This document shows, piece by piece, positions 1 to 14,711 of a DNA stretch of 20,000 bases. Each line of letters opens with the position of its first letter. The first letter of the stretch is position 1. Position numbers and translations under genes: made by a program. Source of the stretch: an uncultured virus (IMG/VR IMGVR_UViG_3300042468_000189) (lineage: Duplodnaviria; Heunggongvirae; Uroviricota; Caudoviricetes); the IMG/VR virus record IMGVR_UViG_3300042468_000189; one strand, given 5' to 3'. The notes beneath the pieces are model-generated. The model saw nothing but the letters and a program-made list of their open reading frames with translations. It was not told the origin of the DNA and did not search any database.

Positions 1-582
1 CCCGCTATTAAAGAGGCTAAGCGCCAAGCTGAAATAGCAAATCAGGCAATCGGCGCAAAAGCAGCGCAAGCAGGTGCTTTTGGTGGTTCTCGGCAAGGGT
101 TGATGGAGTCTGAGTTACAACGCAATCTGCTAAATCAGATTGGCACTATCCAAGGTCAAGGGTTACAGAAAGCTTACGAGTCTGGTCTTGGGCAGTTTAA
201 TACTGAACAACAGCGTGCTCTTGAAGCCCAGAAATTGGCTGAGCAATCTCGACAGTTTGGTTCTGAGCTTGGGCTTAAAGGTTTGCAAACTAGTATTCAA
301 GCGGGTAGTGCTCTTGGCAATCTTGGGCAACAGCAAGGTTATCTTGATCTGGCAACGCTTAAACAAATGGCGGATCTTGGGCAGCAACAGCAGCAGTTTG
401 ACTATAACGAGTTCTTGCGCGGTGAAAAGTATCCGTATGAAAATCTCACGTTTATGAGAAATATGCTGCAAGGACTGCCTTATAACGCAGCACCTACTGG
501 TATTGACCCCATGTCTCAGGCATTATCGGGTGGTATTTCTTCCGTTTACTTAGCGCAACTTCTTGGTGGGTTAGGGGGTTAA
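1..582 (+). CDS. Internal virion / DNA ejection protein, 5'-truncated by the window edge
   Basis: Frame 1 is open from base 1 (PAIKEAKRQAEIANQAIGAKAAQAGAFGGSRQGLMESE...), so the track start at 100 is probably not the true start. Gln/Gly/Ala-rich with a GAFGGSR motif typical of podovirus ejection proteins, a Gly-rich hydrophobic C-terminus, and a position upstream of other internal proteins. Confidence 0.65.
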   Translation, partial: PAIKEAKRQAEIANQAIGAKAAQAGAFGGSRQGLMESELQRNLLNQIGTIQGQGLQKAYESGLGQFNTEQQRALEAQKLAEQSRQFGSELGLKGLQTSIQAGSALGNLGQQQGYLDLATLKQMADLGQQQQQFDYNEFLRGEKYPYENLTFMRNMLQGLPYNAAPTGIDPMSQALSGGISSVYLAQLLGGLGG

Positions 583-2210: not shown

Positions 2211-5200
2211 ATGCCGACACTGCTGGAGATCCTGCAAGACCCCAACTACATCAACGCAAATCCTGCTACAAAAAAAGCTATCTTTGATAAGTACGCTCCG
2301 CAGGATTCTAATTATGTAGATGCTAATGACGCTACCAAAGCTGCCATACGGCAGCGTTTTGGGTTAAGCACTGCTGCTCCTGCTGTCAAAAAACAATACG
2401 GTGTACCCTTAGAAGTTCCTCCTGAAGATAAGGAAGGGTTTGTCCCCGCTGTTAAGGCAGGGTATGAATCACTCAAAGGATCGCTTGCGCTTGCTGCTGG
2501 TAAAGCAGGACTAATGGATCTTAAAGAAGCCGAGCGTTATCAAGCAGAGCGCGAAGCAGAAGCCCAGAGGGTATTCACACCTACTGAAAAGGGTTGGTCT
2601 GAAGCGCCTTTTCAAAAATTTAAAGAGACTTTGGGTGGTTCATTACCTTATATGGCTGCACCTATTGCTGCGGCTGCGGGTGCCGCTGCGCTTCCTGTTA
2701 CGGGTACTGCCGCTACATTAGCCACTTTGGGCGCAACTGGTTTAGTGTCTGCTACGCAGTTCACAGGTACTAATCTTGCGAGACAGCTTGACGAAGTAAA
2801 GCGCACTAATCCTAATGCGGGGCTTGAACAAACAAGTTTAGGTAGCGCCGTTGCCGCTGCCATACCACAGACTGCGCTAGATATTGTTGGTATGAAAGCT
2901 ATCCCACTAGTGCGTGGGTTGTTTAAGTCTGTTGGTAAAGAAGTCACTGAACAACAAGCTAAGAACTTTGCCGAGCAAGGGTTCCGTCGCACACTTGCTG
3001 ATTACTCTTTAGCTACAGGCAAAGCTGCGGGTGTTGAAGGTGCTACTGAGACAGGGCAACAATTTTTAGAGCGTCTACAAGCTGGGTTAAACATTGCAGA
3101 TGCTGATGCTCGTAAAGAGTACGTTGAAAGTTTTATTGGTGGTGCTGTTCTTGGTGGCGCACTTTCTCCTGCTGGTCGATACATTGAGCGACGCAGGGAA
3201 GCAAAGACTCCCGAAGAACGTTCTGCAATTGATGAAGCACAAGCCAAGATTGATGCAGAGCAGCTAGCAAAGCAGAAAGAAGATCTTCAAGGGAAAGCCG
3301 CTGCGGTAAATGTAGAAGACATTGCTGCTAGGACGCAAGAGCTTGCTAAAGAACCTGCTACTGCTGGTGACGTATTAACTGCTGCTACTCAAGCAGCACA
3401 AGAAAAGTTAGCTGAGCAAGCAACTCCAGAACAAAAAGTAGCGGAAGCTGCTACTAAAGTTGATGCGCTTACTTCTAGGATTAATGAACTTACTGACGAA
3501 TACATAGCTGCTGGAGATTCCCCTGATCAAGCCAAAATCAAAGCCGCTGCTCAGGCTGCGGAAGAGGAACGAAACGACCAAGAGGCTGACCAAGCTCTAT
3601 CCGAACTTGCAGAAATTCAAGCCGAAGCCGGAAAGGAGGCAGAAGATGCTGCTAAAGCTATCGAACAAGGAGGTGGAGAAAGCGTTCCAATTCCTAGCCG
3701 ACCCGACGGAGGAGTACCCACCGGAGGAGTTGAGCCACCTGTCGCCGGTGGAGTGGAACGCCCTGCACGTCCTGCTGAACCAACTGTACGAGGAGAGGAA
3801 GTACCATCCGGTGCAGTAGAAGAAAAAACTCAACCCCCAAAGGAAATCCCCAGTGTCACTACGCCCACTGAAACCAAGCAAGCAAAAGAAGAAGGAGCAG
3901 CAGCGCCTGCTGAAGGAACAAAAGTGGCAAAACTTGCCACAGCAGCCAAACCTGCCGGTGTACCAAAAGCAGCAGCCCCTCAAGTAACAATTATTAATCA
4001 GTATCCTGGCAAGAATACAAACGGCCAAAATACAAAAGATCTTGTGCTCTCAAACGGAGAGACCGTTACTATTACGAATGTAGGTGAAGGGCGTAAGCCT
4101 AAGTGGGTTAGGCGTGTAAATGGTGAGGAAGAAGTTCTTGGCACTAACTTAAAAGATGCGTTTCTAAAAGTTAGATCTGATGCTGTGCCTACTGGCCCTG
4201 CGCCTAAACGTGGTCCGAAACCTAAGCTGACTGAGGAAGAAAAAGAAGCTCGTGCTGTTGAGTCGGGGATGCGTACTGAGGAACTTAACGCAATTGAAAA
4301 TATTATTCTTTCTACTAAGAAGCTAAAAGGTTCTGACCGCCCCGGCTTGGCTACGATGTTGGATCTGTTCCTTGGCCCAAGACCCGAATCTAAAGCTTCC
4401 ATGCAGCAGTACCACGATACTTTTATGAAAGGTATTGAGGGTCAGTTTGCAAACATTGGTAATCCAGAAACTAGAACAGAAACTCTTAACGACTATATAA
4501 CTAAGAGAGTGCTCCCTGTTTTGGAAGAGCTGTACCGCCTTGGTACTGATCCAAGGTATGCAAACACTCGCATCCGTGATCTCGCTATGAGTAATTTTGA
4601 GCGTGGTCCTAGCAATATTAAAAAGGGCATCATAGCGCGAGCTGAACGCCGTAAAGAAGAGACTAAGCCTGTAGAGCAAACAGAAGCTGTTAGCGAAGAA
4701 CCCATAGTCACACCCAAGGCTCCCACTGGCCCTGCACCTGTCGTTACTACTAAGGTAAAGAAGCGTACGTTCGTAAAACCAGAAGGTGGTCCTGGTGCTC
4801 TTGCTCAGGCAGATATTTCAGAAACGGAATTACAGTCAACCAGCCCTGCCTTAAATCCAAAGATCGAAGCCGGTGCGCCTAAGACAGGTAAAGACGCTGC
4901 CCAGATTATTGCAAAAGATCCTAAGAGCAATAAGTTTGAACGCACCTTGGCACAAAAATTGGTGTCTGCGTTAGGGAATATAAAATTCATAATTGTTTCT
5001 AATAAGTCTAAGCAAGGGCTTATTGATAATTTCAAGAAGCAAAAAGCTAGGGGGTTGTTCATACCCACTAACGATATGGTCGTTGTAGCAGGGAGCGATC
5101 TGTCAGGGGTAGGGCAAGGCGTAAACAACCAGACTGTTTTGCACGAGCTACTACATGCGGGGACTGCGGTAAAAATCTACGAAGGTGAGCAGATTGTAAA

Positions 5201-8200
5201 AGCTGACCCTAGAAGCACAGACCCAAGGGCGCTTGCGTATCGTAAATTAGTACGGTTAATGGCTGCTGCACGGGACGCAGCCGATGATGCGGATAAGCTT
5301 CCTGATGGTCATCCATACAAAGAATTTGTAAAAAGCTTAAATCAAAAGTTCACCAAAGGTAAAGCTCTAACCAATGTGTATGAGTTTTTAACCTACGGTA
5401 TGACTGATGGGGACTTTCAGCAGTTCTTAAGCACAGTGCAGTTTGGCAAAACGCAAAGCGTCATGAGCACTTTTGTAGCTACGATTAGACAGCTACTTGG
5501 GCTTAGTAAAAACGATGAGTCTGCGCTTGCTAACCTTATTGAAGTAACAGACACGCTCTTGTCACTGGAGCCTTCCGTTGCCGACGCGCAGGCTAAAATA
5601 GAAATACTCTCCCAGAAAAAAGACGTACAGACCGCTGCCGATGTGCAAGTCAAATATGCTAACGACGTAATCAATACGCCTCGTAGCCAAGGCCCATCTG
5701 TATCTGCGCTGAACCAAGCTATAGCTAACGGTATGGATCTATCTAGTCAGGCAGAGCTTGCTGGTGCTATTGCAGAAGGTGCTATGTCTGGTGCTAGAAA
5801 ACATATTCTTGGTGCGTTTACTCCTAGCCAACTTGCAAAACTTGTTAAAGACAAAATCCCTGCGCTTACTCGTGTGGTCGATCTTGGTCGGAAGTTCAAC
5901 GCTAAGCGCCAGCAGTACGTCGATGAGATGAAAGATGTTATGAAGCCGTGGCTTAAGCTTCAACGCAACGACCGTGAACAAAGTCAGTTGCTTGCCACCA
6001 TCATGCACCTCTCTACAGTTAACGGTATAGACCCAAGCATCCCCGGTAAAGATCGTCTTGCATCCACGCCGCAGTCAGATACCTTGGATGATCTGTGGGA
6101 AAAGCTTGGCGAACCGGGGCGCAAGATTTATATCGATGTACGTGATTACTACGCTAAGCAATATGAAACGTATAAAGATCTTTTGAACAAACGTATTGAA
6201 ATGATGGGGATCTCCGATGAGGAGAAAACCAAGTTCATGGATCTGCTCAAGAAACAATTTGAGTCAGACAAAGTAGCTAAGCCTTACTTCCCTCTTATGA
6301 GATATGGAGAGAACTGGTTGCGTGTCGGCAAAGGCAAGGACATGGAGTTTTATATGTTTGAGTCTGCCTCAGAGCGCAACCGCTTCGCCATCCGTAGAGC
6401 TAAGGAGATGGGCAAGCCGCTGAAGGATTTGTACGCCGACGGTACGCTCAAGCGTGGTGACCAGCTTAAGAATATGATGGAAGAAAGCTTTGCTGATACG
6501 ACGAAGCTAAAAGAAGTTCTTGCTGCTGTAGACAAGTTAGGCATCGACACTGATAAGGCATCGATCAAGGACGAGATCTATCAGATGTATCTGCTCACGC
6601 TGCCAGAGAAGAGCTTCCGCAAACAGTTTATTCATCGTAAAAACACAGCAGGTTTTAGCGCAGATGCCCTACGGAACTTTGGCACTGCGGGTTTCCGTAT
6701 GTCCAATCAACTTGCCAAGATGGAGTACCAACCCCAGATCGTCAACACACTTGACGAAGCAAGAGAGTCTATCAAGGATGACCCTGACGCATCTAAGTAT
6801 CGTCCTTATATCGAAGAAGTAGCAGGCGACTTTGACGCTGCTGTTAATCCTAAGAACGAAAACTCTATCCTGAACTTTGCAGCCAACGGACTATCGACGC
6901 TCAACTTCTTCTACTACATGAGTTCGATCTCGTCTGCTCTGACGAACATGACTTCGCTGCCTGTGTTTGGTTATCCCACACTGCTTGCTGAGTATGGCAA
7001 GACTCCCGGCGGCGCAAAGGATGTGCACAAAGAGCTTGTGCGGTTCATGAATGTCTACAAGGAAGTTGGGTTCCGACGCAAGGTTAATGGTAAGACTGAA
7101 TATGTTATGCCTTCCATACGCAATGCGTTGACCAATGCTGATGAGATTAAGGCTTACGATGAGTTTGCGGCTGACAACCTTTTCTCATTCAACCGCTCGA
7201 TGGATTTGCTCAATATCGTCAAGTCTCCTTCTCAGGAAGCTACTAACCCTAACATTTTGAAAGTGCCTGTTCAGGCTGCAACCGATGCTGTCTCTACGTT
7301 GTTCTCCATGACGGAACAACTACCCCGCGAGATGATGGCTATGGCTGCTTATCGCTTAGGACGCAGTCAAGGTTTGTCGCATGATGAAGCTACTAAAAAA
7401 GCTTTGGATCTGACGCATGATGCGATGTACGACTACTCCATGTTTGATACACCCAGATACTTCCGTGGGCCGGTTGGCAGAACCATATTCCAGTTCAAGA
7501 AATTTTCACAGAACACGGCGTTCTATCTCACGACTAATTTCTTGCAAATGTTTAAAGGTGCAGATCCTACGATTAGGAAGCAAGCTGCAACGCGCTTCTT
7601 CGGCACACTAGGTATGACAGGTATGTTTGCAGGTCTGACGGGTATGCCGTTGTACACCGTGATGTCTACCGTTGCCGAGAAAGTATTAAGTGCATTTGGT
7701 GATGATGACGATGACGAAGACAGTGCAGCTTTCCAGATACGCAAGTACGGATTTGATTTGTGGTTTAAGAAGTGGCTGTCCGAAAACTTTGGCGCAAATG
7801 TAGCAACCTACGTCGCTATGGGTCCGGTCACTGGGCTAACAGGTGCAGACTTCAACTCGCGGGTCAAACTTAACGATCTATTCTTCCAAGATTGGGAGTT
7901 TAAAGGGTTGCTCGGCCCAAGCTTCGGTATGTTTGAGAATGCCCAACGTGCGTACGACAGATTCAAAGAAGGGCAAACCGAGAGGGCTATCGAGACCATG
8001 ATGCCTGCGTTCATCAGGCAACCGCTGAAAGCGTATCGCTTTAGCGAAGAAGGAGTAAAGACTCCAAAAGGCTACGAGGTTGTAGCGCAAGAAGATTTGA
8101 ACTGGATGGACATAGCCATGCAGAGTATTGGGTACGCCCCAATCAAAGTGTCCGCAAAACAAACTGAGAACTTTAAGCTTAAGAAGCTAGAACAGGAACG

Positions 8201-8453
8201 GGAAGAAGAGCGCACAGAACTGCTAAAGCGTTCGGTCTATGCGCGACGGGGTATTTCTGACGAAGACCCCGATGATATTCAGGAAGATATTGATAAGTTC
8301 AACAGTAAGTTTCCCAACCGTCGAATCCTCCCTGTAACCATCATGCAGTCGGATCAAGCTAGGCGTAGGCAGGAACGTGCCGTAGACCAAGGGTTGTATA
8401 TAGCCAACCCGATGAACCGACGCGAACTCTTAGAGCTGAGAGCTAAAGAGTAA
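2211..8453 (+). CDS. Large polyvalent internal virion protein (2080 aa) with a zincin-like metallopeptidase domain
   Basis: Uninterrupted 6.2-kb ORF. Gly/Ala hydrophobic segments near the N-terminus, a Pro/Glu-rich linker, HELLH (H978-H982, nt 5142-5156) with a downstream Glu in NVYEFLTYG (E1058), and a helical C-terminal region with hydrophobic segments. Last gene of the structural arm. Confidence 0.8.
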   Translation: MPTLLEILQDPNYINANPATKKAIFDKYAPQDSNYVDANDATKAAIRQRFGLSTAAPAVKKQYGVPLEVPPEDKEGFVPAVKAGYESLKGSLALAAGKAGLMDLKEAERYQAEREAEAQRVFTPTEKGWSEAPFQKFKETLGGSLPYMAAPIAAAAGAAALPVTGTAATLATLGATGLVSATQFTGTNLARQLDEVKRTNPNAGLEQTSLGSAVAAAIPQTALDIVGMKAIPLVRGLFKSVGKEVTEQQAKNFAEQGFRRTLADYSLATGKAAGVEGATETGQQFLERLQAGLNIADADARKEYVESFIGGAVLGGALSPAGRYIERRREAKTPEERSAIDEAQAKIDAEQLAKQKEDLQGKAAAVNVEDIAARTQELAKEPATAGDVLTAATQAAQEKLAEQATPEQKVAEAATKVDALTSRINELTDEYIAAGDSPDQAKIKAAAQAAEEERNDQEADQALSELAEIQAEAGKEAEDAAKAIEQGGGESVPIPSRPDGGVPTGGVEPPVAGGVERPARPAEPTVRGEEVPSGAVEEKTQPPKEIPSVTTPTETKQAKEEGAAAPAEGTKVAKLATAAKPAGVPKAAAPQVTIINQYPGKNTNGQNTKDLVLSNGETVTITNVGEGRKPKWVRRVNGEEEVLGTNLKDAFLKVRSDAVPTGPAPKRGPKPKLTEEEKEARAVESGMRTEELNAIENIILSTKKLKGSDRPGLATMLDLFLGPRPESKASMQQYHDTFMKGIEGQFANIGNPETRTETLNDYITKRVLPVLEELYRLGTDPRYANTRIRDLAMSNFERGPSNIKKGIIARAERRKEETKPVEQTEAVSEEPIVTPKAPTGPAPVVTTKVKKRTFVKPEGGPGALAQADISETELQSTSPALNPKIEAGAPKTGKDAAQIIAKDPKSNKFERTLAQKLVSALGNIKFIIVSNKSKQGLIDNFKKQKARGLFIPTNDMVVVAGSDLSGVGQGVNNQTVLHELLHAGTAVKIYEGEQIVKADPRSTDPRALAYRKLVRLMAAARDAADDADKLPDGHPYKEFVKSLNQKFTKGKALTNVYEFLTYGMTDGDFQQFLSTVQFGKTQSVMSTFVATIRQLLGLSKNDESALANLIEVTDTLLSLEPSVADAQAKIEILSQKKDVQTAADVQVKYANDVINTPRSQGPSVSALNQAIANGMDLSSQAELAGAIAEGAMSGARKHILGAFTPSQLAKLVKDKIPALTRVVDLGRKFNAKRQQYVDEMKDVMKPWLKLQRNDREQSQLLATIMHLSTVNGIDPSIPGKDRLASTPQSDTLDDLWEKLGEPGRKIYIDVRDYYAKQYETYKDLLNKRIEMMGISDEEKTKFMDLLKKQFESDKVAKPYFPLMRYGENWLRVGKGKDMEFYMFESASERNRFAIRRAKEMGKPLKDLYADGTLKRGDQLKNMMEESFADTTKLKEVLAAVDKLGIDTDKASIKDEIYQMYLLTLPEKSFRKQFIHRKNTAGFSADALRNFGTAGFRMSNQLAKMEYQPQIVNTLDEARESIKDDPDASKYRPYIEEVAGDFDAAVNPKNENSILNFAANGLSTLNFFYYMSSISSALTNMTSLPVFGYPTLLAEYGKTPGGAKDVHKELVRFMNVYKEVGFRRKVNGKTEYVMPSIRNALTNADEIKAYDEFAADNLFSFNRSMDLLNIVKSPSQEATNPNILKVPVQAATDAVSTLFSMTEQLPREMMAMAAYRLGRSQGLSHDEATKKALDLTHDAMYDYSMFDTPRYFRGPVGRTIFQFKKFSQNTAFYLTTNFLQMFKGADPTIRKQAATRFFGTLGMTGMFAGLTGMPLYTVMSTVAEKVLSAFGDDDDDEDSAAFQIRKYGFDLWFKKWLSENFGANVATYVAMGPVTGLTGADFNSRVKLNDLFFQDWEFKGLLGPSFGMFENAQRAYDRFKEGQTERAIETMMPAFIRQPLKAYRFSEEGVKTPKGYEVVAQEDLNWMDIAMQSIGYAPIKVSAKQTENFKLKKLEQEREEERTELLKRSVYARRGISDEDPDDIQEDIDKFNSKFPNRRILPVTIMQSDQARRRQERAVDQGLYIANPMNRRELLELRAKE
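3646..3819 (+). CDS. Candidate overprinted small gene (57 aa, +1 frame) nested in the giant virion gene
   Basis: AAGGAGG at 3633-3639, 6-nt spacer, ATG at 3646. Product MLLKLSNKEVEKAFQFLADPTEEYPPEELSHLSPVEWNALHVLLNQLYEERKYHPVQ looks like two amphipathic helices. The host frame here is a Pro/Gly linker with atypical codons. Confidence 0.6.
   Translation: MLLKLSNKEVEKAFQFLADPTEEYPPEELSHLSPVEWNALHVLLNQLYEERKYHPVQ
3853..3987 (+). CDS. Second candidate overprinted ORF (44 aa, +1 frame, basic and Gln-rich)
   Basis: AAGGA at 3840-3844, 8-nt spacer, GTG at 3853, TAA at 3985-3987. Product MSLRPLKPSKQKKKEQQRLLKEQKWQNLPQQPNLPVYQKQQPLK. Confidence 0.3.
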   Translation: MSLRPLKPSKQKKKEQQRLLKEQKWQNLPQQPNLPVYQKQQPLK

Positions 8454-8479
8454 AAAAATCCCCGCAGGAGGGCGGGGAT
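8452..8479 (-). terminator. Rho-independent terminator for the minus-strand replication operon
   Basis: 8-bp stem ATCCCCGC (8458-8465) / GCGGGGAT (8472-8479) with a 6-nt loop. The A7 run at 8452-8458 gives a U-tail on the minus strand. Lies between convergent genes. Confidence 0.85.
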
Positions 8480-8523
8480 GAAAAGACTCGTCGTGAGTCT
8501 GAGGAGACAGCATGGACTACAGC
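8452..8523 (-). ncRNA. Candidate ~70-nt small RNA or regulatory 3'UTR carrying anti-SD/anti-AUG sequence
   Basis: Minus-strand TATACT (8534-8529) lies 17 bp from a weak -35 TTCGCG (8557-8552). Hairpin AGACTC/GAGTCT (8484-8500), then the terminator. Contains UCCAUGCUGUCUCCU, complementary to phage start regions. Confidence 0.35.
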
Positions 8524-8537
8524 GGTGGAGTATACAG

Positions 8538-8732
8538 TTAAACTCTCCAAACGCGAACCCCTTGGATGCCTTCCTCAATTACTGTCTTCATAACAACTTT
8601 AAAACGCATCCGCCGCATCTCCTCGCGGATCGTAACTTTGGCCGCAGCGCAATCTAAGCAGGGTATAAAAAACGAACTACCCTTCACAAAGTTGCGCCAG
8701 TTAATGTTGAAGTTAACTTGGTGTACTAGCAT
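8538..8732 (-). CDS. Small phage protein (64 aa), possibly DNA-binding
   Basis: ATG overlaps the end of the primase gene. The GxSFF...GVRVWR pattern is one I recognise from small phage hypothetical proteins. Ends just before the terminator region. Confidence 0.7.
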   Translation of the reverse strand: MLVHQVNFNINWRNFVKGSSFFIPCLDCAAAKVTIREEMRRMRFKVVMKTVIEEGIQGVRVWRV

Positions 8733-11517
8733 CGGCAGGTACTATCATTTCCTCAACGTCGAGGAAGTTGCCGTTCGTGCAATCAAACACCAAGCAGTAG
8801 ACAGGTGGCGCTGTGATCTTCATGCCCTTGGTGATGCGCTTAACTTCAGAATTAATCAGTACCTTGTCTTTCTCCAACTTGCGAGTAAGTTCCCTGTAAG
8901 TTATTTGAGCCTTGGCGCAGTCTGCTCTGAAGTGTTTAGCATTGATATACATCCGCTTGCTGTCTGGTTCGTATCGTATGTATAGCGGACCCTTGGGTTC
9001 TAAGATTGGTGCAGCGGACATCTGTGTGCGCGAGTCAACCTCTGCATTGACGACAAGGATGTTCTGCATGTGCCTACCGATATAGTCACCGATGACGCTT
9101 GCTACATTATCAAGTGGAGGTCGCACATGCTGACGCAAAACATGGATCTGTTCAGTAACCCATACGTAAACGTTCCGCATGTTGAAGTCATGAAGCCCAA
9201 GCTCTTTGGCGATAAGTCCCCCTGCTATGTTGCAAGCAATGAGTGCCGACCAGAACCGCTCACGAGAAGTTAGTCTGACTTCCTTATCAATCTTGGCTTG
9301 AACTGAGCGCACCATGTTGATAACGTAATCTTTGTTGCTGACAAGGTAGGAGAAGTAGATGTCGGCGGCGTGACCGTAATTGCTCTCTAACTGCACATCA
9401 AACATCTGCTTGGCATACTGCTCATCCAACCCGCTGCTATAAATCACATACTCAAAGACCCGCATCATCTCTCCGTCTACCGAGTCCCGTGCTATCTGTA
9501 GCTTGTCGTAAAGACTAGCGTTGGAAGTCATAATTTCTATAAGCTCCCACCGCTCGGTGTTTGATCTGAGTTGGTTGACGCTTGCTTGCGCTCGCTCTTT
9601 GTCACGGCCTTGAGTTACTTGGTACAAGTGCGATCCGATGTCTTCAGCAGGAACCTTGGTAACTTCATCGTATGTGTGGCATATGTTATTAAAGATAGCA
9701 AGCTTGCGAGCTACTGCATTCTGCGTATCCTTCCACATCGACATAAGTTCCGTGGGTTTGCCGACCACACTATTAATAACACGAAGGATCGTTGATTTAC
9801 CTGGGCCTGAGTCACCACTGATTAAGTTAATAGCAGCACCACGAATTCCAGTAAACTTTAGTAGGGGGCTACCGAATGCTGTTAACGCAGCATAAGCATA
9901 GGGTTCTAACCCCTCCTTACCGTAGACGTTGAAGCATTCTTTCCATTTATCAAACTCACCTATTGCAACCATGTTTGGCGCAAACTGATCGGTGGATGCC
10001 GATGGGGGGCTGTAGTGGATGCCCGTTGCCGTTATCTCTCTATCGCCAACGATGAACTTACTGTCACCGTCGCACCATCCGAATTGTGTTCTCATCTTGT
10101 CAGCCTTTCTGCTCACTTGTAGTTCTTTAACGAATGTCATGATGTAGCCAAGCAGTAGTTCTTGTTGCTTAGCTGTTGCTGCTACCCCTTTTTCTGCTAG
10201 CGCCTCGCGCAGCTTTTCTTTAACGACAACTGACGTAAGCGGTACAGAAAATTCTTTTACTCCATCCTGTGGTAGATGAAGTTTGAACACAACCATCTCG
10301 CCCTCAATCGGATGCACCATCCTTCGGACGACATAAAGATCGTGTTCGTACACAACCTGCGCGTCTTCCTCCTCCGAGATCGGACGTTTATAAACACCCC
10401 CTGCTTTACCCCGAAAATATGGGAATGGGTATTCGGGTACGGAATGAACAATCGCAGGCTCATCGTCTTTTGCTTCTTCAATGATCTCGTTAGTTGTAGC
10501 TTCAGCAATCTCAAGCCCAAGCAAAATAGGACTCTTGATCTTGCCTTTGTGTATGCACTCGTCACAACCGCCGGGGTTAAACTTTTCAAACGTAGCGCAA
10601 CCGTATGGGCCTTTAATCCGATTAGCCTTCTTCTCGGTTTCGTCTGGATCGTACTGCTCGTAGTTTTTTGATATGGCGTGTATCGCCACATCTCTGTCTA
10701 CGCAATACTGTGCAACTGAAAGCCCCGCCCTCCATATCGGCTCAGACATCTCCTGCTGATGCGTTGTTATGTACTTAATCTGATTACAACCAAAGTCACG
10801 ATCTGTCTTAATCAGAATAGTCTTGAAGTGGAACTCGCGGTTATTGGCAAGTGACTTCGTTAGCTCATTGACTTGACGTGGTAGGAAGTCTGGTACTTCT
10901 TCCTTAAAAACTAGAACACCAAGAGTCTGCCTTAGCTCCTCAAAGTCAACTGGCTCGCCTGTATATAGCAGCGTTACATCAAGCGGGTCGTCTGGATCTT
11001 TGAGGTTCTTTGTATCTGGCAGACGCAGTATCCGCGCCTTATCTGCTGTGCATGCAGGGTCAGCACTGAGGAACCCTTCTTCACATAGTGCCTTCAACCT
11101 GTCCGCAGCGGGTTGCCATACAGCAGGTGCTACTGGGGTTTTGAATGTCCAGTATGCGTGTATGCCGCGCCCACTGTTGACAAGTGTCGGCCTTGGTAAT
11201 GCGTTGTCCTTACAAAAAGTTTTGAGTGCCGCGATGCCTTGCGTTTGATCTTCATAAGGTTTGTCTGTTCCGCAATCTATATCTAACCAGAGTGCACGGA
11301 ACTCTTTGGTGTTGTCTCCTGATCTTGTGGTTGGTTCCTTAAACGTAGCGCAGGCATAGTAAGCATCGAACCCATCGTCCACCAACTGCTGCCCCGCCTG
11401 TATAACTTCTTCAGCAGACTCAACAAATTTCTTGATGACTCGTTTGTTCTTTATACCTACTACACAGCGCCACCCCTCCGGTGCATGCACCGCAGATAAC
11501 AACTCAAGCGCCGACAT
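8713..11517 (-). CDS. AEP-type primase fused to a Cys-rich domain and a DUF927-like/P-loop helicase (934 aa)
   Basis: AEP motifs WLDID, SGRGIHAYW and D..RILRLP. Cys cluster C...PYGC...CDEC. FGW motif, Walker A GDSGPGKST and Walker B TYDE. RBS GGAGG upstream. Confidence 0.88.
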   Translation of the reverse strand: MSALELLSAVHAPEGWRCVVGIKNKRVIKKFVESAEEVIQAGQQLVDDGFDAYYACATFKEPTTRSGDNTKEFRALWLDIDCGTDKPYEDQTQGIAALKTFCKDNALPRPTLVNSGRGIHAYWTFKTPVAPAVWQPAADRLKALCEEGFLSADPACTADKARILRLPDTKNLKDPDDPLDVTLLYTGEPVDFEELRQTLGVLVFKEEVPDFLPRQVNELTKSLANNREFHFKTILIKTDRDFGCNQIKYITTHQQEMSEPIWRAGLSVAQYCVDRDVAIHAISKNYEQYDPDETEKKANRIKGPYGCATFEKFNPGGCDECIHKGKIKSPILLGLEIAEATTNEIIEEAKDDEPAIVHSVPEYPFPYFRGKAGGVYKRPISEEEDAQVVYEHDLYVVRRMVHPIEGEMVVFKLHLPQDGVKEFSVPLTSVVVKEKLREALAEKGVAATAKQQELLLGYIMTFVKELQVSRKADKMRTQFGWCDGDSKFIVGDREITATGIHYSPPSASTDQFAPNMVAIGEFDKWKECFNVYGKEGLEPYAYAALTAFGSPLLKFTGIRGAAINLISGDSGPGKSTILRVINSVVGKPTELMSMWKDTQNAVARKLAIFNNICHTYDEVTKVPAEDIGSHLYQVTQGRDKERAQASVNQLRSNTERWELIEIMTSNASLYDKLQIARDSVDGEMMRVFEYVIYSSGLDEQYAKQMFDVQLESNYGHAADIYFSYLVSNKDYVINMVRSVQAKIDKEVRLTSRERFWSALIACNIAGGLIAKELGLHDFNMRNVYVWVTEQIHVLRQHVRPPLDNVASVIGDYIGRHMQNILVVNAEVDSRTQMSAAPILEPKGPLYIRYEPDSKRMYINAKHFRADCAKAQITYRELTRKLEKDKVLINSEVKRITKGMKITAPPVYCLVFDCTNGNFLDVEEMIVPADASTPS

Positions 11518-12663: not shown

Positions 12664-13098
12664 TTACTTACTACGACGGACAACAATGCTGTACCGACTA
12701 TCGGTGTTCAGACCCATCGGTAACAAGTTGGGGTTTTCCTCGATGAATTGCTTCATGTTGGTTTGATGAATGCGCCGTTCTAATAAACCAAACGCATCGT
12801 GTTCACGTACAAAGCTGTACATAGAATCCCAATCGTTAGTCCAGTAACGGTTCTTCACACTACGAATCACAGTACCTGCTGCTGTGCGGATACTGTCAGC
12901 ACCTATTGATTTGCAAGCTTCAAGAAGTTGCTCTTCGATCACGTCCATCTGTTCTTGAAGCTCAACATCCTTCGCTTCGTAGTCAGACTTCAGCTTCGCT
13001 CGCGCATCTCGAATCTTGATATAGATGCCTGCTAATTTGTCCACAGGGACAGATTGCTTTTCTTCAGGGGACACAAGGTCTTGGATGCCCTCATCCAT
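12664..13098 (-). CDS. Phage coiled-coil protein, Gam/Gp157-like (144 aa)
   Basis: RBS AAGGAG-N6-ATG. N-terminal coiled coil followed by SIRTAAGTV and DWD...F motifs. The family assignment is tentative. Confidence 0.55.
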   Translation of the reverse strand: MDEGIQDLVSPEEKQSVPVDKLAGIYIKIRDARAKLKSDYEAKDVELQEQMDVIEEQLLEACKSIGADSIRTAAGTVIRSVKNRYWTNDWDSMYSFVREHDAFGLLERRIHQTNMKQFIEENPNLLPMGLNTDSRYSIVVRRSK

Positions 13099-13129
13099 GC
13101 TACGCTCCTTTAAGTTATTTTGTGGGTTA

Positions 13130-13158
13130 ACTGTAAATCATAAAGTTGACTTTGTCAA
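13130..13158 (-). promoter_or_regulatory. Sigma70-type promoter for the Gam-like/SSB/HTH/primase operon
   Basis: TTGACA (13158-13153), 17-bp spacer, TACAGT (13135-13130). Lies in an AT-rich gap upstream of a strong RBS. Confidence 0.7.
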
Positions 13159-13162
13159 GTTT
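13142..13162. promoter_or_regulatory. Imperfect palindrome over the -35 box (candidate operator)
   Basis: AAAgTTGACtttGTCAAgTTT: 8 of 9 arm positions are symmetric around a 3-nt centre. Confidence 0.45.
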
Positions 13163-14711
13163 CTTTAAGCTCTTGACCGTACAAGTCAACGATACGGGAA
13201 TGCACATCGATATTATTTTTGAGCATTTCGTAAAGCTTGCGCTCCACTGGACTGCCTGATATGTGCACCACCGTCATTGTGTTCTTCTGTCCGGGCCTAT
13301 TGATGCGAGCGTTTGCTTGCAGATAAGTTTCTACAGAAGTCACAGGCGCATACCATATCACCACGTTAGCAGCAGTCAGCGTTAGCCCATGCGATGCCGC
13401 TTGTGGTTGAATGATAAGCACTTTAGGGTCAGGCTGCTCTTGGAAGTTCTTGATGATTGCAGCCCTGCGATTAACTGTTACTGATCCGTTGATAACGTCA
13501 GACGTTATGCCCGCCTTGGTTAGATGATTGTTGAGCAACTCGATGGTATGCGTGAACGGTACAAATACTAAAACTTTATGGCTAGCCTCTTCGATAACTT
13601 CCTCGATGACCTGCAAGCGATTAGCTACATCAAACTCTATAACTTCCCTAGTGTCCGTATAGACCGCGCCACCAGAAATCTGTAGCAACTTGTTCAAGCT
13701 TGTGGCTGCATTCGGAGAAGTAACTTCTTCGCCACCGGCTGAGATCATCATCTGGTCTTTGAGGATCTTGTAATACTTGCGCTGCTGCGGAGTCAGGGGT
13801 GCATCTCGTTCTACGTACATAAGATCAGGCAGATCGATACAATCTTTTTTCTCAAACCTGATTGCAGGTTGCAGCACTTGATGCACGACATTCTCTGCAT
13901 TCGGTCTGGGTATCCACCTGAACTGACTGACCTTCTGCATCACCTTGTCACGGAACGAACCAAGGAACTTAGGCGTGTTGTCTGGGTTGACTAGCTTTGC
14001 TAATCCGTAAGCATCAACAGGCGATTGCGCGGCTGGTGTGCCTGTCAACATCCATAACCACTTGGCACGATCCGACACACGCTTCATAACTTTCCAACGT
14101 CTGGTCGATACATTCTTATAAGCGTTGGCTTCATCGACAACAATCAAATCAAACTTACCGTCGGCAGTGACTGCGTCTTCGATGATCTCAACACCTTCAA
14201 AGTTTGTTATGACAAACTCAGCACAGCTACCTACTATCTTGACCCGTTGCGCTGCCGATCCGTAGGCTACGTTGCATGTGCGGTGTACAGCAAACTTAAA
14301 GAGATCCTCTTGCCATGCTGACTTCATGATAGACAGAGGGCAGACCACCAACACGCGACGCACAAGCCCTAGCTTCATTAAGTAATCAGCAGACCATATA
14401 ACGGATGCTGTCTTACCCGTGCCTTGCTCGTTGAAGCAGAACGCCCTGCGGTTTAATGTTAAGAACTCTGCTGTAGTCTTTTGGTGATTGAATGGCGTGA
14501 ACTGCCCAGGCCAATCGTATTTCTTTGATATAGGAGATGGAACACCTTTTATGAATTGATTAAGAAGCTGAGCTTCGTTTAGCCCCCACTTAACCGCAAC
14601 CTCGTACACCCCATCTTCCTGCCCTACCACCTTGCTCTTTTCTATGGCTGCTGTTATTCGGTCAGGATATTTAGTCCTGACCAGTAGCGCCCTGTTATCG
14701 ATCACTTCCAT
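13155..14711 (-). CDS. SNF2-family (SF2) helicase/translocase (518 aa)
   Basis: Motif I EQGTGKT, Ia VVCPLS, II DEAN, III LTGTP, V HGLTLT, VI QANARINRPGQ. Confidence 0.92.
   Translation of the reverse strand: MEVIDNRALLVRTKYPDRITAAIEKSKVVGQEDGVYEVAVKWGLNEAQLLNQFIKGVPSPISKKYDWPGQFTPFNHQKTTAEFLTLNRRAFCFNEQGTGKTASVIWSADYLMKLGLVRRVLVVCPLSIMKSAWQEDLFKFAVHRTCNVAYGSAAQRVKIVGSCAEFVITNFEGVEIIEDAVTADGKFDLIVVDEANAYKNVSTRRWKVMKRVSDRAKWLWMLTGTPAAQSPVDAYGLAKLVNPDNTPKFLGSFRDKVMQKVSQFRWIPRPNAENVVHQVLQPAIRFEKKDCIDLPDLMYVERDAPLTPQQRKYYKILKDQMMISAGGEEVTSPNAATSLNKLLQISGGAVYTDTREVIEFDVANRLQVIEEVIEEASHKVLVFVPFTHTIELLNNHLTKAGITSDVINGSVTVNRRAAIIKNFQEQPDPKVLIIQPQAASHGLTLTAANVVIWYAPVTSVETYLQANARINRPGQKNTMTVVHISGSPVERKLYEMLKNNIDVHSRIVDLYGQELKET

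What the first reader, a model, noticed from the sequence alone, without database searches (positions are those of the whole stretch)
8452..8557. Candidate small RNA / 3'UTR at the end of the replication operon that is antisense to the start region of the operon's own first gene
Seen: right after the last minus-strand stop there is TATACT (17 bp from a weak TTCGCG), then ~70 nt with a 6-bp hairpin and an intrinsic terminator. This RNA contains 5'-UCCAUGCUGUCUCCU-3' (8516-8502). The mRNA of the Gam-like gene, first gene behind the TTGACA promoter about 4.6 kb upstream, reads 5'-AGGAGCGUAGCAUGGA-3' (13109-13094). They pair over 8 Watson-Crick bp across the AUG, 2 G-U pairs, one bulged C, and 5 bp across the SD. 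Known: 3'UTR-derived sRNAs and hok-type fold-back elements repress translation by occluding SD and AUG. Inference: a phage riboregulator, acting in trans or by 5'-3' fold-back, that limits replication gene translation. Caveat: any reversed RBS-like sequence pairs to some extent with start regions.
Basis: partly seen in the sequence, partly recalled or inferred. Interest (0 to 1): 0.8.

Follow-up and report, generated by a model that had tools for sequence, protein, structure and literature searches.

The report
Phage small RNA targeting its own operon
The gap between two converging phage genes holds a conserved gene for a small regulatory RNA of about 72 bases, and across many uncultured water phages its exposed stretch changes in step with the ribosome-binding site of one phage gene, so it most likely switches that gene's translation off.

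Summary
Window 8452-8523 (minus strand) folds into a single-stranded 5' stretch carrying CUCCU, a 6-bp hairpin and an intrinsic terminator. It fills the whole gap between the 64-aa ORF ending the replication operon and the converging 2080-aa gene.

The element is conserved after the same ORF in phages whose primases are only about 45% identical.
- 63 of 70 representatives have the terminator.
- 58 of those 63 carry CTCC, against 17.4 in shuffles.
- 47 of 70 have a sigma-70-type promoter straddling the stop codon.
- A covariance model found 96 hits, all on this strand.

The exposed stretch co-varies with the start region of the same phage's Gam/gp157-like gene. The longest Watson-Crick run averages 7.8 in cognate pairs and 6.0 in permuted pairs (0 of 10,000 permutations reach it). 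Five other gene starts show little or no such signal. In the window this start region is the best of 18 (-27.9 kcal/mol).

No transcript data could be obtained, so expression and repression are inferred. The promoter is weak in the window's own clade. The closest known analogues are the Burkholderia double-hairpin "toxic" sRNAs (Rfam RF02278, below threshold here) and the self-regulating 3'UTR sRNAs OppZ and CarZ. It is a new RNA family of a known kind.

The parts
8452..8523 (-). Candidate small RNA, about 72 nt, from the predicted start to the end of the U run
   Evidence: Covariance model R1 hit at 8452-8523, 83.4 bits; fold; sub-threshold full-length match to RF02278 at 8451-8509.
8499..8523 (-). 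Single-stranded 5' seed region; the core UCCAUGCUGUCUCCU is 8516-8502 and CUCCU is 8506-8502
   Evidence: Unpaired in the centroid fold and in the consensus fold. CTCCT is invariant in alignment A3.
8484..8500 (-). Hairpin 1, 6 bp with a 5-nt loop
   Evidence: All 5 consensus pairs keep pairing through changes on both sides in relatives.
8458..8479 (-). Intrinsic terminator stem-loop, followed by the U run at 8457-8452
   Evidence: No terminator-like site was called on the + strand here.
8529..8557 (-). Weak sigma-70-like promoter: TTCGCG (8557-8552), 17 bp, TATACT (8534-8529), straddling the stop of the 64-aa ORF
   Evidence: It was not called by the promoter scan. The same position holds TTGCGN-16..18-TANNNT in 47 of 70 representatives, with TTG/TTA Leu codon bias at the -35.
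8538..8732 (-). Conserved 64-aa ORF of no known family, last gene of the operon; its C-terminal G-L/V-R-V-W codons carry the -35
8713..11517 (-). DUF927 primase/helicase (934 aa), used to collect relatives
13094..13109 (-). Target site: SD, spacer and AUG of the Gam/gp157-like gene
   Evidence: covariation.
12664..13098 (-). Gam/Sipho_Gp157-like gene (144 aa), the proposed regulated gene
   Evidence: Pfam hits are below threshold (Mu_Gam-Sipho_Gp157-TOTE, E 0.002) and PHROG 13900 scores E 1.9e-23. The AF2 model has pLDDT 84. BFVD matches include 'Siphovirus Gp157' (E 5e-4) and 'Host-nuclease inhibitor' (E 2e-3). No PDB match.
13130..13158 (-). Promoter TTGACA-17-TACAGT in front of the target gene
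   Evidence: conserved in relatives.

Best explanation
Window 8452-8523 (minus strand) is the gene of a small base-pairing RNA that belongs to the phage. The RNA is made by one or both of two routes: transcription from a promoter that overlaps the stop codon of the last operon gene, or release as the 3' end of the operon's own mRNA, since both share one terminator. Its unpaired 5' stretch carries an anti-Shine-Dalgarno core (CUCCU) plus flanking letters. This stretch pairs with the SD, the spacer and, in this clade, the AUG of the Gam/gp157-like gene, which is the first gene behind the TTGACA promoter 4.6 kb upstream. The duplex is much stronger than the ribosome's own SD contact and would block 30S binding. 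That would limit synthesis of this protein as operon transcripts and the RNA accumulate, which is a delayed negative feedback. Hairpin 1, the U-rich linker and the U-tailed terminator resemble the body of chaperone-dependent sRNAs. Shown here: the anatomy, its conservation, strand specificity, the structure covariation and the seed-target covariation. Inferred: transcription, repression rather than another outcome, action in trans, and any chaperone.
For: Anatomy. The seed is single-stranded and is followed by a hairpin and a terminator. The RNA gene fills the whole 84-nt gap between the converging genes.

Conservation after the 64-aa ORF, in phages with 45-100% primase identity:
- A terminator is present in 63 of 70 representatives.
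- CTCC occurs in 58 of those 63 (shuffles 17.4), CTCCT in 52 (6.5) and CTCCTT in 40 (2.4).
- GGAG occurs in only 3 of 63.
- In 43 of 63 a CTCC is unpaired in the minimum-energy fold.

Promoter. The pattern TT[GTA][AC][CAG]N-16..18-TANNNT, with the -10 placed 3-6 nt from the stop codon's first base, occurs in 47 of 70 representatives. The background is 1399 of 102,882 15-nt windows. The Leu codon under the -35 is TTG or TTA in 55 of 60 cases, against 32% in the primase genes.

Structure. All 5 pairs of hairpin 1 and 3 of the 8 terminator pairs show compensatory changes. Model R1 gave 96 hits at E <= 0.01 in 1.94 Mb searched on both strands. All lie on the operon strand, and G001 (56 kb) has a single copy.

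Target.
- The longest Watson-Crick run between the RNA and the cognate Gam-like start region averages 7.82, against 5.98 permuted (sd 0.16; 0 of 10,000 permutations; n = 56).
- With one representative per start-region cluster (30 clusters), z is 7.2-8.9 and no permutation reaches the observed value in any of 20 resamplings of 2000.
- Anchored on GGAG/CUCC, the flanking pairs number 4.21 against 2.39 permuted (0 of 5000), with 2-4 Watson-Crick pair types per column in most columns.
- 29 of 56 representatives have exact runs of 8 nt or more, spanning a median of -12 to -3 from the AUG.
- Examples include changes in the SD core matched by the RNA.
- Control gene starts give z of 1.6 (primase), 0.4 (293-aa), 0.8 (64-aa) and -0.1 (HTH).
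- In a scan of whole loci on both strands, the Gam-like start carries an exact complement of 9 nt or more in 26 of 56 representatives.

Window. This start region is the best of 131 candidate starts (-27.9, next -24.1). The net cofold gain is -19.9 kcal/mol, against -8.7 for the SD with the 16S tail.
Against: - No transcript evidence. All runs holding the stretch are kept as contigs, which cannot show ends or strand.
- In the window's own clade the -35 is TTCGCG, because the codon is Val instead of Leu. The promoter scan does not call this promoter, so independent transcription is uncertain here.
- In 27 of 56 representatives the exact run with the Gam-like start is 7 nt or less, hardly more than generic SD complementarity.
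- The Gam-like start is first by energy in only 17 of 56 loci, against 5.5 expected by chance.
- In the full 56-kb relative the window's seed ties with one doubtful candidate start at -28.1.
- In a scan of all positions of the window the site is not an outlier: a site at 7310-7271, antisense to the 2080-aa gene, scores -30.3, and the next sites score -27.4 and -26.4.
- In one clade other gene starts share the same complementary sequence, so the target may not be unique.
- 7 of 70 representatives, and the nearest cultured phage found (Pseudomonas phage Rollin), lack the element.
- Start codons of the Gam-like genes were assigned by my own heuristic, and a few look wrong.
Confidence: 0.78

Rival explanations
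1. The same pairing acts in cis. The element is only the 3' untranslated end of the polycistronic mRNA, and it folds back on the 5' start region of that same molecule (a hok-type fold-back). No free small RNA is involved.
For: The RNA shares its terminator with the operon. No convincing terminator lies between 13098 and 8538. The window clade's own promoter is weak. The covariation fits cis as well as trans.
Against: 47 of 70 representatives keep a good promoter at a fixed distance, with codon bias that has no use in a pure 3'UTR. The two sites lie 4.6 kb apart. By established knowledge of coupled transcription and translation, ribosomes would load long before the 3' end exists.
Confidence: 0.12
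2. The RNA is chiefly a general anti-SD regulator of host or many phage mRNAs, like the Burkholderia double-hairpin 'toxic' sRNAs. The Gam-like start region is only one of many partners.
For: The invariant part is the anti-SD core. There is a full-length sub-threshold match to RF02278, whose model begins with the same seven letters. RF02278 members carry CU-rich unpaired stretches complementary to RBSs, and ncS27 slows growth when overexpressed (PMC5688073, passages read). Extra start regions share the complement in one clade.
Against: The letters flanking the core follow one particular gene's spacer, and the other gene starts show little or no signal. The host is unknown, because MAG labels of related contigs disagree, so no host target could be examined.
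Confidence: 0.12
3. The region is nothing more than the operon's terminator with a protective hairpin, and the complementarity is a chance by-product of a reversed RBS-like word.
For: Any CUCCU pairs with SDs. Scanning every position of the window gives several sites within 2 kcal/mol of the Gam-like site.
Against: CTCC is enriched in the RNA body (58 of 63, against 17.4 in shuffles). The cognate-specific covariation holds with negative controls. The promoter is conserved.
Confidence: 0.05
4. The conserved word is read on the + strand, as an RBS (AGGAG-N5-ATG at 8502-8514) for a tiny ORF after the 2080-aa gene.
For: On the + strand the word is a textbook SD and start, with a 9-codon frame running 8512-8541.
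Against: By eye on the sequences, the peptide is not conserved in length or frame, being 9 codons here and some 24-46 in relatives. Distant relatives have no ATG at a workable distance (L131, L045). G-U pairs in the helices fit the minus strand.
Confidence: 0.02
5. The complementarity is a DNA-level feature: two copies of a protein-binding site in inverted orientation, or a primer RNA for a replication origin next to the primase gene.
For: The element lies beside the replication genes. Lambda OOP RNA was once taken for a primer (PMC12197685, section 2 read).
Against: The covarying letters are the SD and spacer of an mRNA. At positions beside the exact runs, G-U is enriched over A-C in cognate pairs (24 to 17) against permuted pairs (350 to 550). 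This modest signal only makes sense for RNA pairing on these strands.
Confidence: 0.02

Closest known systems
Betaproteobacteria 'toxic' small RNAs, also called double-hairpin RNAs, of Burkholderia (Rfam RF02278; ncS03, ncS05, ncS27, ncS62)
   Same: [quoted passage not shown] Predicted interactions centre on start regions (PMC5688073, passages read). The Rfam model aligns over its full length to 8451-8509 and begins with the same seven letters.
   Different: The score is 29.6 bits against the gathering score of 50, so this is not a member by Rfam's rule. Here the RNA is phage-borne and single-copy. Its seed flanks are tuned to one phage gene. Burkholderia carries three to five chromosomal copies with many predicted metabolic targets.
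OppZ and CarZ of Vibrio cholerae: gene autoregulation by 3'UTR-derived sRNAs (PMC7398697; search listing and start of abstract only)
   Same: The small RNA lies at the 3' end of an operon, shares the operon's terminator, and base-pairs with a transcript of the same operon to give negative feedback.
   Different: As I recall, and not checked here, OppZ and CarZ are released by processing and have no promoter of their own. Here most family members have a promoter overlapping the last stop codon. The target here is the start region of the first gene behind the operon's promoter. The setting is a phage.
Phage antisense RNAs that block translation of a phage gene: sar of P22, OOP and aQ of lambda (review PMC12197685, section 2 read)
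   Same: A short phage RNA pairs with a phage mRNA and limits synthesis of a regulator or early protein. sar acts at translation initiation.
   Different: Those RNAs are encoded opposite their targets, so complementarity is automatic. Here the RNA gene lies 4.6 kb from its target, so complementarity has to be kept by selection, which is what the covariation shows.
Trans-acting phage sRNAs VpdS (VP882) and PreS/LPR1 (lambda) (PMC12197685, section 2; bioRxiv 10.1101/2024.10.31.621285, abstract and outline)
   Same: Phage-encoded base-pairing sRNAs that act in trans.
   Different: Their described key targets are host mRNAs or host sRNAs, for example dnaN. Here the conserved target is a phage gene. 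No sequence relation was tested.
   Same: A 3' element complementary to the 5' start region of the same mRNA.
   Different: hok mRNA is a few hundred nt long and the fold-back keeps the full-length mRNA inert. Here the distance is 4.6 kb and a separate promoter is conserved.

Membership tests
Rfam RF02278 Betaproteobacteria_toxic_sRNA | Score at or above the curated gathering score (50 bits) | tested here: not met
   29.6 bits at window 8451-8509 (E 1e-4 in a 131-221 nt search). The gathering search of the window found nothing. The best score among 12 relatives was 25.4.
Rfam RF02278 Betaproteobacteria_toxic_sRNA | Two hairpins, the second an intrinsic terminator, with an unpaired CU-rich stretch complementary to RBSs | tested here: met
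   Folds; consensus fold; CTCC statistics.
Rfam RF02278 Betaproteobacteria_toxic_sRNA | Several chromosomal copies per Burkholderiales genome; growth inhibition on overexpression or on cloning in E. coli | not testable with these tools
   There is a single copy in the 56-kb phage record. Toxicity needs an experiment.
Trans-encoded base-pairing sRNA | Own promoter and own terminator | tested here: inconclusive
   The terminator is clear. The promoter is good in 47 of 70 representatives but weak in the window (TTCGCG-17-TATACT, not called). No 5' end data exist.
Trans-encoded base-pairing sRNA | A conserved, accessible seed whose complementarity to the target is kept by compensatory change | tested here: met
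Trans-encoded base-pairing sRNA | The RNA is expressed and changes target expression | not testable with these tools
   Only assembled contigs of RNA libraries were on hand.
Autoregulatory 3'UTR-derived sRNA (OppZ/CarZ type) | Lies at the operon's 3' end, shares its terminator, and pairs with the same operon's transcript | tested here: met
   Gene layout; terminator; pairing and covariation.
Autoregulatory 3'UTR-derived sRNA (OppZ/CarZ type) | Released from the mRNA by processing, so that RNA output follows operon output | not testable with these tools
   No end-mapping data. The conserved separate promoter argues that most members are at least partly independent.
Cis-antisense phage RNA (sar/OOP type) | Encoded on the strand opposite its target | tested here: not met
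   The RNA gene (8452-8523) and the target (13094-13109) lie on the same strand, 4.6 kb apart.

The most novel reading that the evidence does not exclude
The RNA has two jobs. Its variable flanks tune it to the phage's own Gam/gp157-like gene. Its invariant anti-SD head and double-hairpin body imitate the host's own double-hairpin (toxic-type) sRNAs, so the phage also plugs into, or overloads, the host's growth-arrest regulon and its chaperone. Late read-through from the converging 2080-aa gene has no terminator of its own. It would produce a perfect antisense copy that carries a decoy of the Gam-like start region and so cancels the RNA late in infection.
Probability: 0.12. Interest if true: 0.85.

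Novelty: new variant of a known kind. Interest (0 to 1): 0.72.

Why it matters
Phage-encoded base-pairing RNAs are few, and most described ones are either antisense to their target or aimed at host genes. Here a whole radiation of uncultured lake and marine phages keeps a small RNA gene at the end of the replication operon, with more than 500 primase relatives in each of two collections. More than ten different seed versions each match that phage's own Gam/gp157-like start region. This amounts to a natural compensatory-mutation series. It names the target without an experiment, shows that a lytic-type phage module carries its own post-transcriptional feedback, and offers ready-made orthogonal RNA and start-region pairs for reporter tests and for synthetic biology. 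It also suggests that the dose of the gp157/Gam-like protein must be kept low, which gives a way in to a protein family of unknown function.

Tried and rejected
- Rfam at gathering scores found nothing in the window.
- blastn of the region against cultured phages found no match.
- tblastn of the primase against cultured phages gave a best hit of 29% identity, Pseudomonas phage Rollin. Its operon ends in overlapping converging genes with no room for the element, so no cultured carrier was found.
- RNA libraries. 20 runs hold part of the stretch, but all are kept as contigs. The four metatranscriptomes laid (X5, X7, X9, X10) cover both sides of the gap. Two contigs bridge the terminator (X9, 8331-8590; X10, 8338-8538). 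Two contigs from different studies start at 8488, inside hairpin 1. Contigs cannot show strand, ends or level, and a break inside an inverted repeat is an expected assembly artefact, so nothing is concluded.
- Host. MAG labels of related contigs disagree (Nanopelagicales, Actinomycetota, Parvibaculum, Caulobacteraceae, a betaproteobacterium and others), so the host stays unknown.
- A + strand mini-ORF was considered and rejected (see rivals).
- Two covariance-model hits at L059 and L080 12751-12831 (24.8 bits) lie inside the converging large gene and are taken as false positives. Those phages have no gap after the 64-aa ORF.
- Identity of the target protein. The PDB profile search and Foldseek against the PDB gave nothing usable, and NCBIfam gave nothing. 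'Gam-like' rests on sub-threshold Pfam hits and on named BFVD models.
- The energy ranking that used the whole RNA body was noisy. Some top scores came from spurious ORFs antisense to the RNA itself.
- The own assembly is not held.
- Earlier notes of this scan held nothing on this genome.
Full report
**What is there**

The window is part of an uncultured phage. The + strand carries a 539-aa ORF and a 2080-aa polyvalent protein gene (LPD39, DarB-like) that ends at 8453. The minus strand carries a replication module:
- family A DNA polymerase;
- PD-(D/E)XK exonuclease;
- SNF2 helicase (13155-14711);
- the promoter TTGACA-17-TACAGT (13158-13130);
- a 144-aa Gam/gp157-like gene (12664-13098);
- a gene of about 293 aa;
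- a small HTH gene;
- a 934-aa DUF927 primase/helicase (8713-11517);
- a 64-aa ORF (8538-8732).

The 84 nt between the two converging stop codons are the finding.

The RNA read from 8523 to 8452 folds as follows (z -3.2):
- an unpaired 5' stretch of about 23 nt;
- a 6-bp hairpin (8500-8484);
- a U-rich linker;
- an 8-bp G+C-rich terminator stem (8479-8458);
- seven U.

The + strand has no terminator-like site there.

**Conservation**

The primase protein and then a primase alignment (A1) were used to collect relatives. They came from IMG/VR, JGI metagenomes and GTDB genomes. I held 175 loci with 40-100% primase identity.

The 64-aa protein was found in 142 of 176 sequences. Of these, 108 had non-identical downstream sequence of at least 110 nt, and I reduced them to 70 representatives.
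- 63 of the 70 have a terminator within 170 nt of the stop.
- The RNA body is a median 74 nt long (range 34-110).
- It contains CTCC in 58 of the 63 (17.4 expected from shuffles), CTCCT in 52 (6.5) and CTCCTT in 40 (2.4).
- The complementary word GGAG occurs in only 3 (3.5 expected).
- In 43 of 63 a CTCC is unpaired in the minimum-energy fold.

Between the core and the terminator most members have a hairpin whose sequence differs from clade to clade. In a 15-sequence alignment all five consensus pairs of that hairpin, and three of the eight terminator pairs, keep pairing through changes on both sides. The seed stays unpaired and CTCCT is invariant.

A covariance model built from this alignment found 96 hits at E <= 0.01 in 1.94 Mb searched on both strands.
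- All 96 lie on the operon strand.
- 94 lie directly after the 64-aa ORF.
- The other two are weak hits inside a coding region, in phages that have no gap at all.
- The nearly identical 56-kb record G001 has one copy. G001 is 99.1% identical to the window over 17.6 kb.

**A promoter of its own**

In 47 of 70 representatives a -35-like TTGCGN (or TTACGN) lies 16-18 bp from a TANNNT box. That box starts 3-6 nt from the first base of the stop codon. The same pattern occurs in 1.4% of 15-nt windows elsewhere in these loci.

The -35 is written in the conserved Gly-Leu-Arg codons of the 64-aa ORF. The Leu codon there is TTG or TTA in 55 of 60 cases, against 32% in the primase genes. CGA is over-used for Arg, at 19 of 70 against 9.6%. 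This points to selection on the DNA letters.

The window's own clade is the exception. It has Val (GTT) at that codon, which gives TTCGCG-17-TATACT, and the promoter scan does not call this. In the window the RNA may therefore come mainly from the operon's 3' end.

**The target**

It has 10 contiguous pairs over the AUG (8 Watson-Crick and 2 G-U), a small internal loop, and 5 pairs on the SD.
- It is the best of 18 gene starts in the window (the others score -10.5 to -23.7).
- It is the best of 131 candidate starts in the window (next -24.1).
- It ties with one doubtful candidate among 357 in G001.
- Shuffled seeds reach it in 3 of 2000 trials, and in 13 of 2000 with CUCCU fixed. The best of 18 starts reaches it in 10 of 500 such shuffles.

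On its own this is suggestive only. A scan of every position in the window gives several sites within 2 kcal/mol.

The comparative test is what settles it. In relatives the letters next to the anti-SD core follow the SD and spacer of that phage's own Gam-like gene. Examples, written mRNA / RNA:
- GGAGCUAACU / AGUUAGCUCC (L125, L131);
- AGGAGCGAUUC / GAAUCGCUCCU (L135);
- CAACCAAGGAGAAA / UUUCUCCUUGGUUG (L097);
- CAAGGAAAAA / UUUUUCCUUG (L101, where the SD core itself has changed);
- CUGAAGGAGA / UCUCCUUCAG (L074), against CCGAAGGAG / CUCCUUCGG (L073).

Measurements:
- The longest Watson-Crick run between RNA body and cognate start region (-24 to +6) averages 7.82. It averages 5.98 (sd 0.16) when RNAs and start regions are re-paired at random, and no permutation in 10,000 reaches the observed value (n = 56).
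- With one representative per start-region cluster (30 clusters), z is 7.2-8.9, with no permutation reaching the observed value in any of 20 resamplings of 2000.
- Anchored on GGAG/CUCC, contiguous flanking pairs number 4.21 against 2.39 permuted (0 of 5000), and most flanking columns show two to four Watson-Crick pair types.
- 29 of 56 representatives have exact runs of at least 8 nt. These span a median of -12 to -3 from the AUG, and 25 of the 29 cover the SD.
- A scan of whole loci on both strands finds an exact complement of at least 9 nt at the Gam-like start in 26 of 56. By my reading of that listing it is the longest or tied-longest site in 18.

The same permutation test on other gene starts gives z of 1.6 (primase), 0.4 (293-aa gene), 0.8 (64-aa ORF) and -0.1 (HTH). 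The SNF2 helicase gives 2.8 (22 of 3000, n = 23).

Beside the exact runs, G-U is enriched over A-C in cognate pairs (24 to 17) against permuted pairs (350 to 550). This modest signal fits RNA pairing on these strands.

**Results against the reading**
- In 27 of 56 representatives the run is 7 nt or less.
- By energy, the Gam-like start ranks first among called gene starts in only 17 of 56 loci (5.5 expected) and within the top three in 35.
- In one clade, start regions of DUF6378/DUF3310 genes, and once of the SNF2 helicase, carry the same complementary word.
- 7 of 70 representatives lack the element.
- Gam-like start codons were set by my own heuristic. It favours SD-bearing starts equally in cognate and permuted pairs, and a few look wrong (L174, L104, L069, L162). 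I did not drop these rows.

**How it most likely works**

The RNA, either free or as the tail of the operon mRNA, covers the SD and AUG of the Gam/gp157-like gene. The net gain is -19.9 kcal/mol in cofolding, against about -8.7 for the SD with the 16S tail. This keeps ribosomes off.

The RNA is produced with or after the operon, so the circuit is a delayed negative feedback on the first gene behind the TTGACA promoter. Repression, action in trans and any chaperone are inferred from how such RNAs are known to work. None of them was observed.

The regulated protein is highly conserved (alignment A2, 58% mean column identity). Its model is a long helix followed by an alpha/beta domain (pLDDT 84). 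It resembles only predicted phage proteins, among them ones named Siphovirus Gp157 and host-nuclease inhibitor. 'Gam-like' is therefore tentative.

**Comparison with what is known**

The nearest catalogued RNAs are the Burkholderia double-hairpin 'toxic' sRNAs (RF02278). Related models are ncS54 (26.1 bits) and anti-hemB (18.5 bits). The RF02278 model aligns end to end at 29.6 bits, against a gathering score of 50, and starts with the same seven letters. Distant relatives weakly hit anti-hemB or the mmgR model instead, and none reaches threshold.

Passages read in PMC5688073 describe RF02278 members as follows:
- 57-92 nt long, with two hairpins;
- CU-rich unpaired stretches that are the reverse complement of RBSs;
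- 55-80% of predicted interactions at start regions;
- slower growth when ncS27 is overexpressed.

PMC4603805 cites their toxicity in E. coli. The phage RNA works like these RNAs but is not a member by Rfam's rule.

In circuit logic it resembles OppZ and CarZ (PMC7398697; listing and start of abstract). Among phage RNAs reviewed in PMC12197685 (section 2 read), sar, OOP and aQ are antisense to their targets. The key described targets of VpdS and PreS are host RNAs.

My three literature searches listed no phage small RNA encoded at an operon's end that targets that operon's first start region. That covers only the held library. The supplements of the papers cited were not opened.

**Verdict**

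This is a real, conserved, strand-specific RNA element, and a new family. It most likely regulates translation of the phage's own Gam/gp157-like gene. What is missing is any direct view of the transcript.

Noticed in passing
window 13146-13158 (minus strand): The -35 of the promoter in front of the Gam-like gene lies in a perfect 5+3+5 palindrome (TTGACAAAGTCAA), which also contains the TGA stop of the SNF2 helicase gene. The word is conserved in near relatives, and TTGACA is kept in distant ones. It may be an operator, for instance for the operon's small HTH protein.
   Followed up: no
L120:1657-1727 and L032:471-537: int-alpA RNA (Rfam RF02996) scores above its gathering score (47.1 and 43.6 bits against 35.8) just upstream of the primase gene in two distant relatives. 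Nothing of the kind was found in the window.
   Followed up: no
window 8446-8545 (+ strand): The stop codon of the 2080-aa gene (8451-8453) lies inside the complement of the small RNA's U tail, and the + strand has no terminator-like site. Read-through from the converging gene would make a perfect antisense of the small RNA that carries a copy of the Gam-like start region.
   Followed up: no
relatives, e.g. L125:6097-6189, L066:2856-2946, L086:9011-9091: Many distant members have an extra 5' hairpin before the seed. Its stem varies, but it has a conserved GCAG loop and closing letters (..UAAGCAGUUGC..). Its function is unknown.
   Followed up: no
L153:1029-1547, L170:1223-1780, L168:173-676, L155:1116-1526, L171:47-1558: In the clade whose seed reads (A)GUUUGCUCCUU, a second gene start upstream in the replication module carries the same complementary word. 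The genes encode DUF6378 or DUF3310 proteins, and once the SNF2 helicase. This may be a second target.
   Followed up: partly
window 8538-8732 (minus strand): The 64-aa protein after the primase is conserved across the whole family, from a shared N-W..F..G.SFF.PC motif to the C-terminal G-L-R-V-W-R. It matches no Pfam, PHROG or NCBIfam family.
   Followed up: no
window 8488: Contigs of two metatranscriptomes from different studies begin exactly at 8488, inside hairpin 1 (X5 record 12, X7 record 20). This is probably an assembly break at an inverted repeat rather than an RNA end.
   Followed up: no
window 2211-8453 (+ strand): The 2080-aa protein combines an LPD39 domain (residues 1190-1342), a DarB-like C-terminal part (PHROG 10089, E 1e-83) and a stretch resembling virion RNA polymerase (PHROG 2206, residues 854-1156, E 2e-18).
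   Followed up: no
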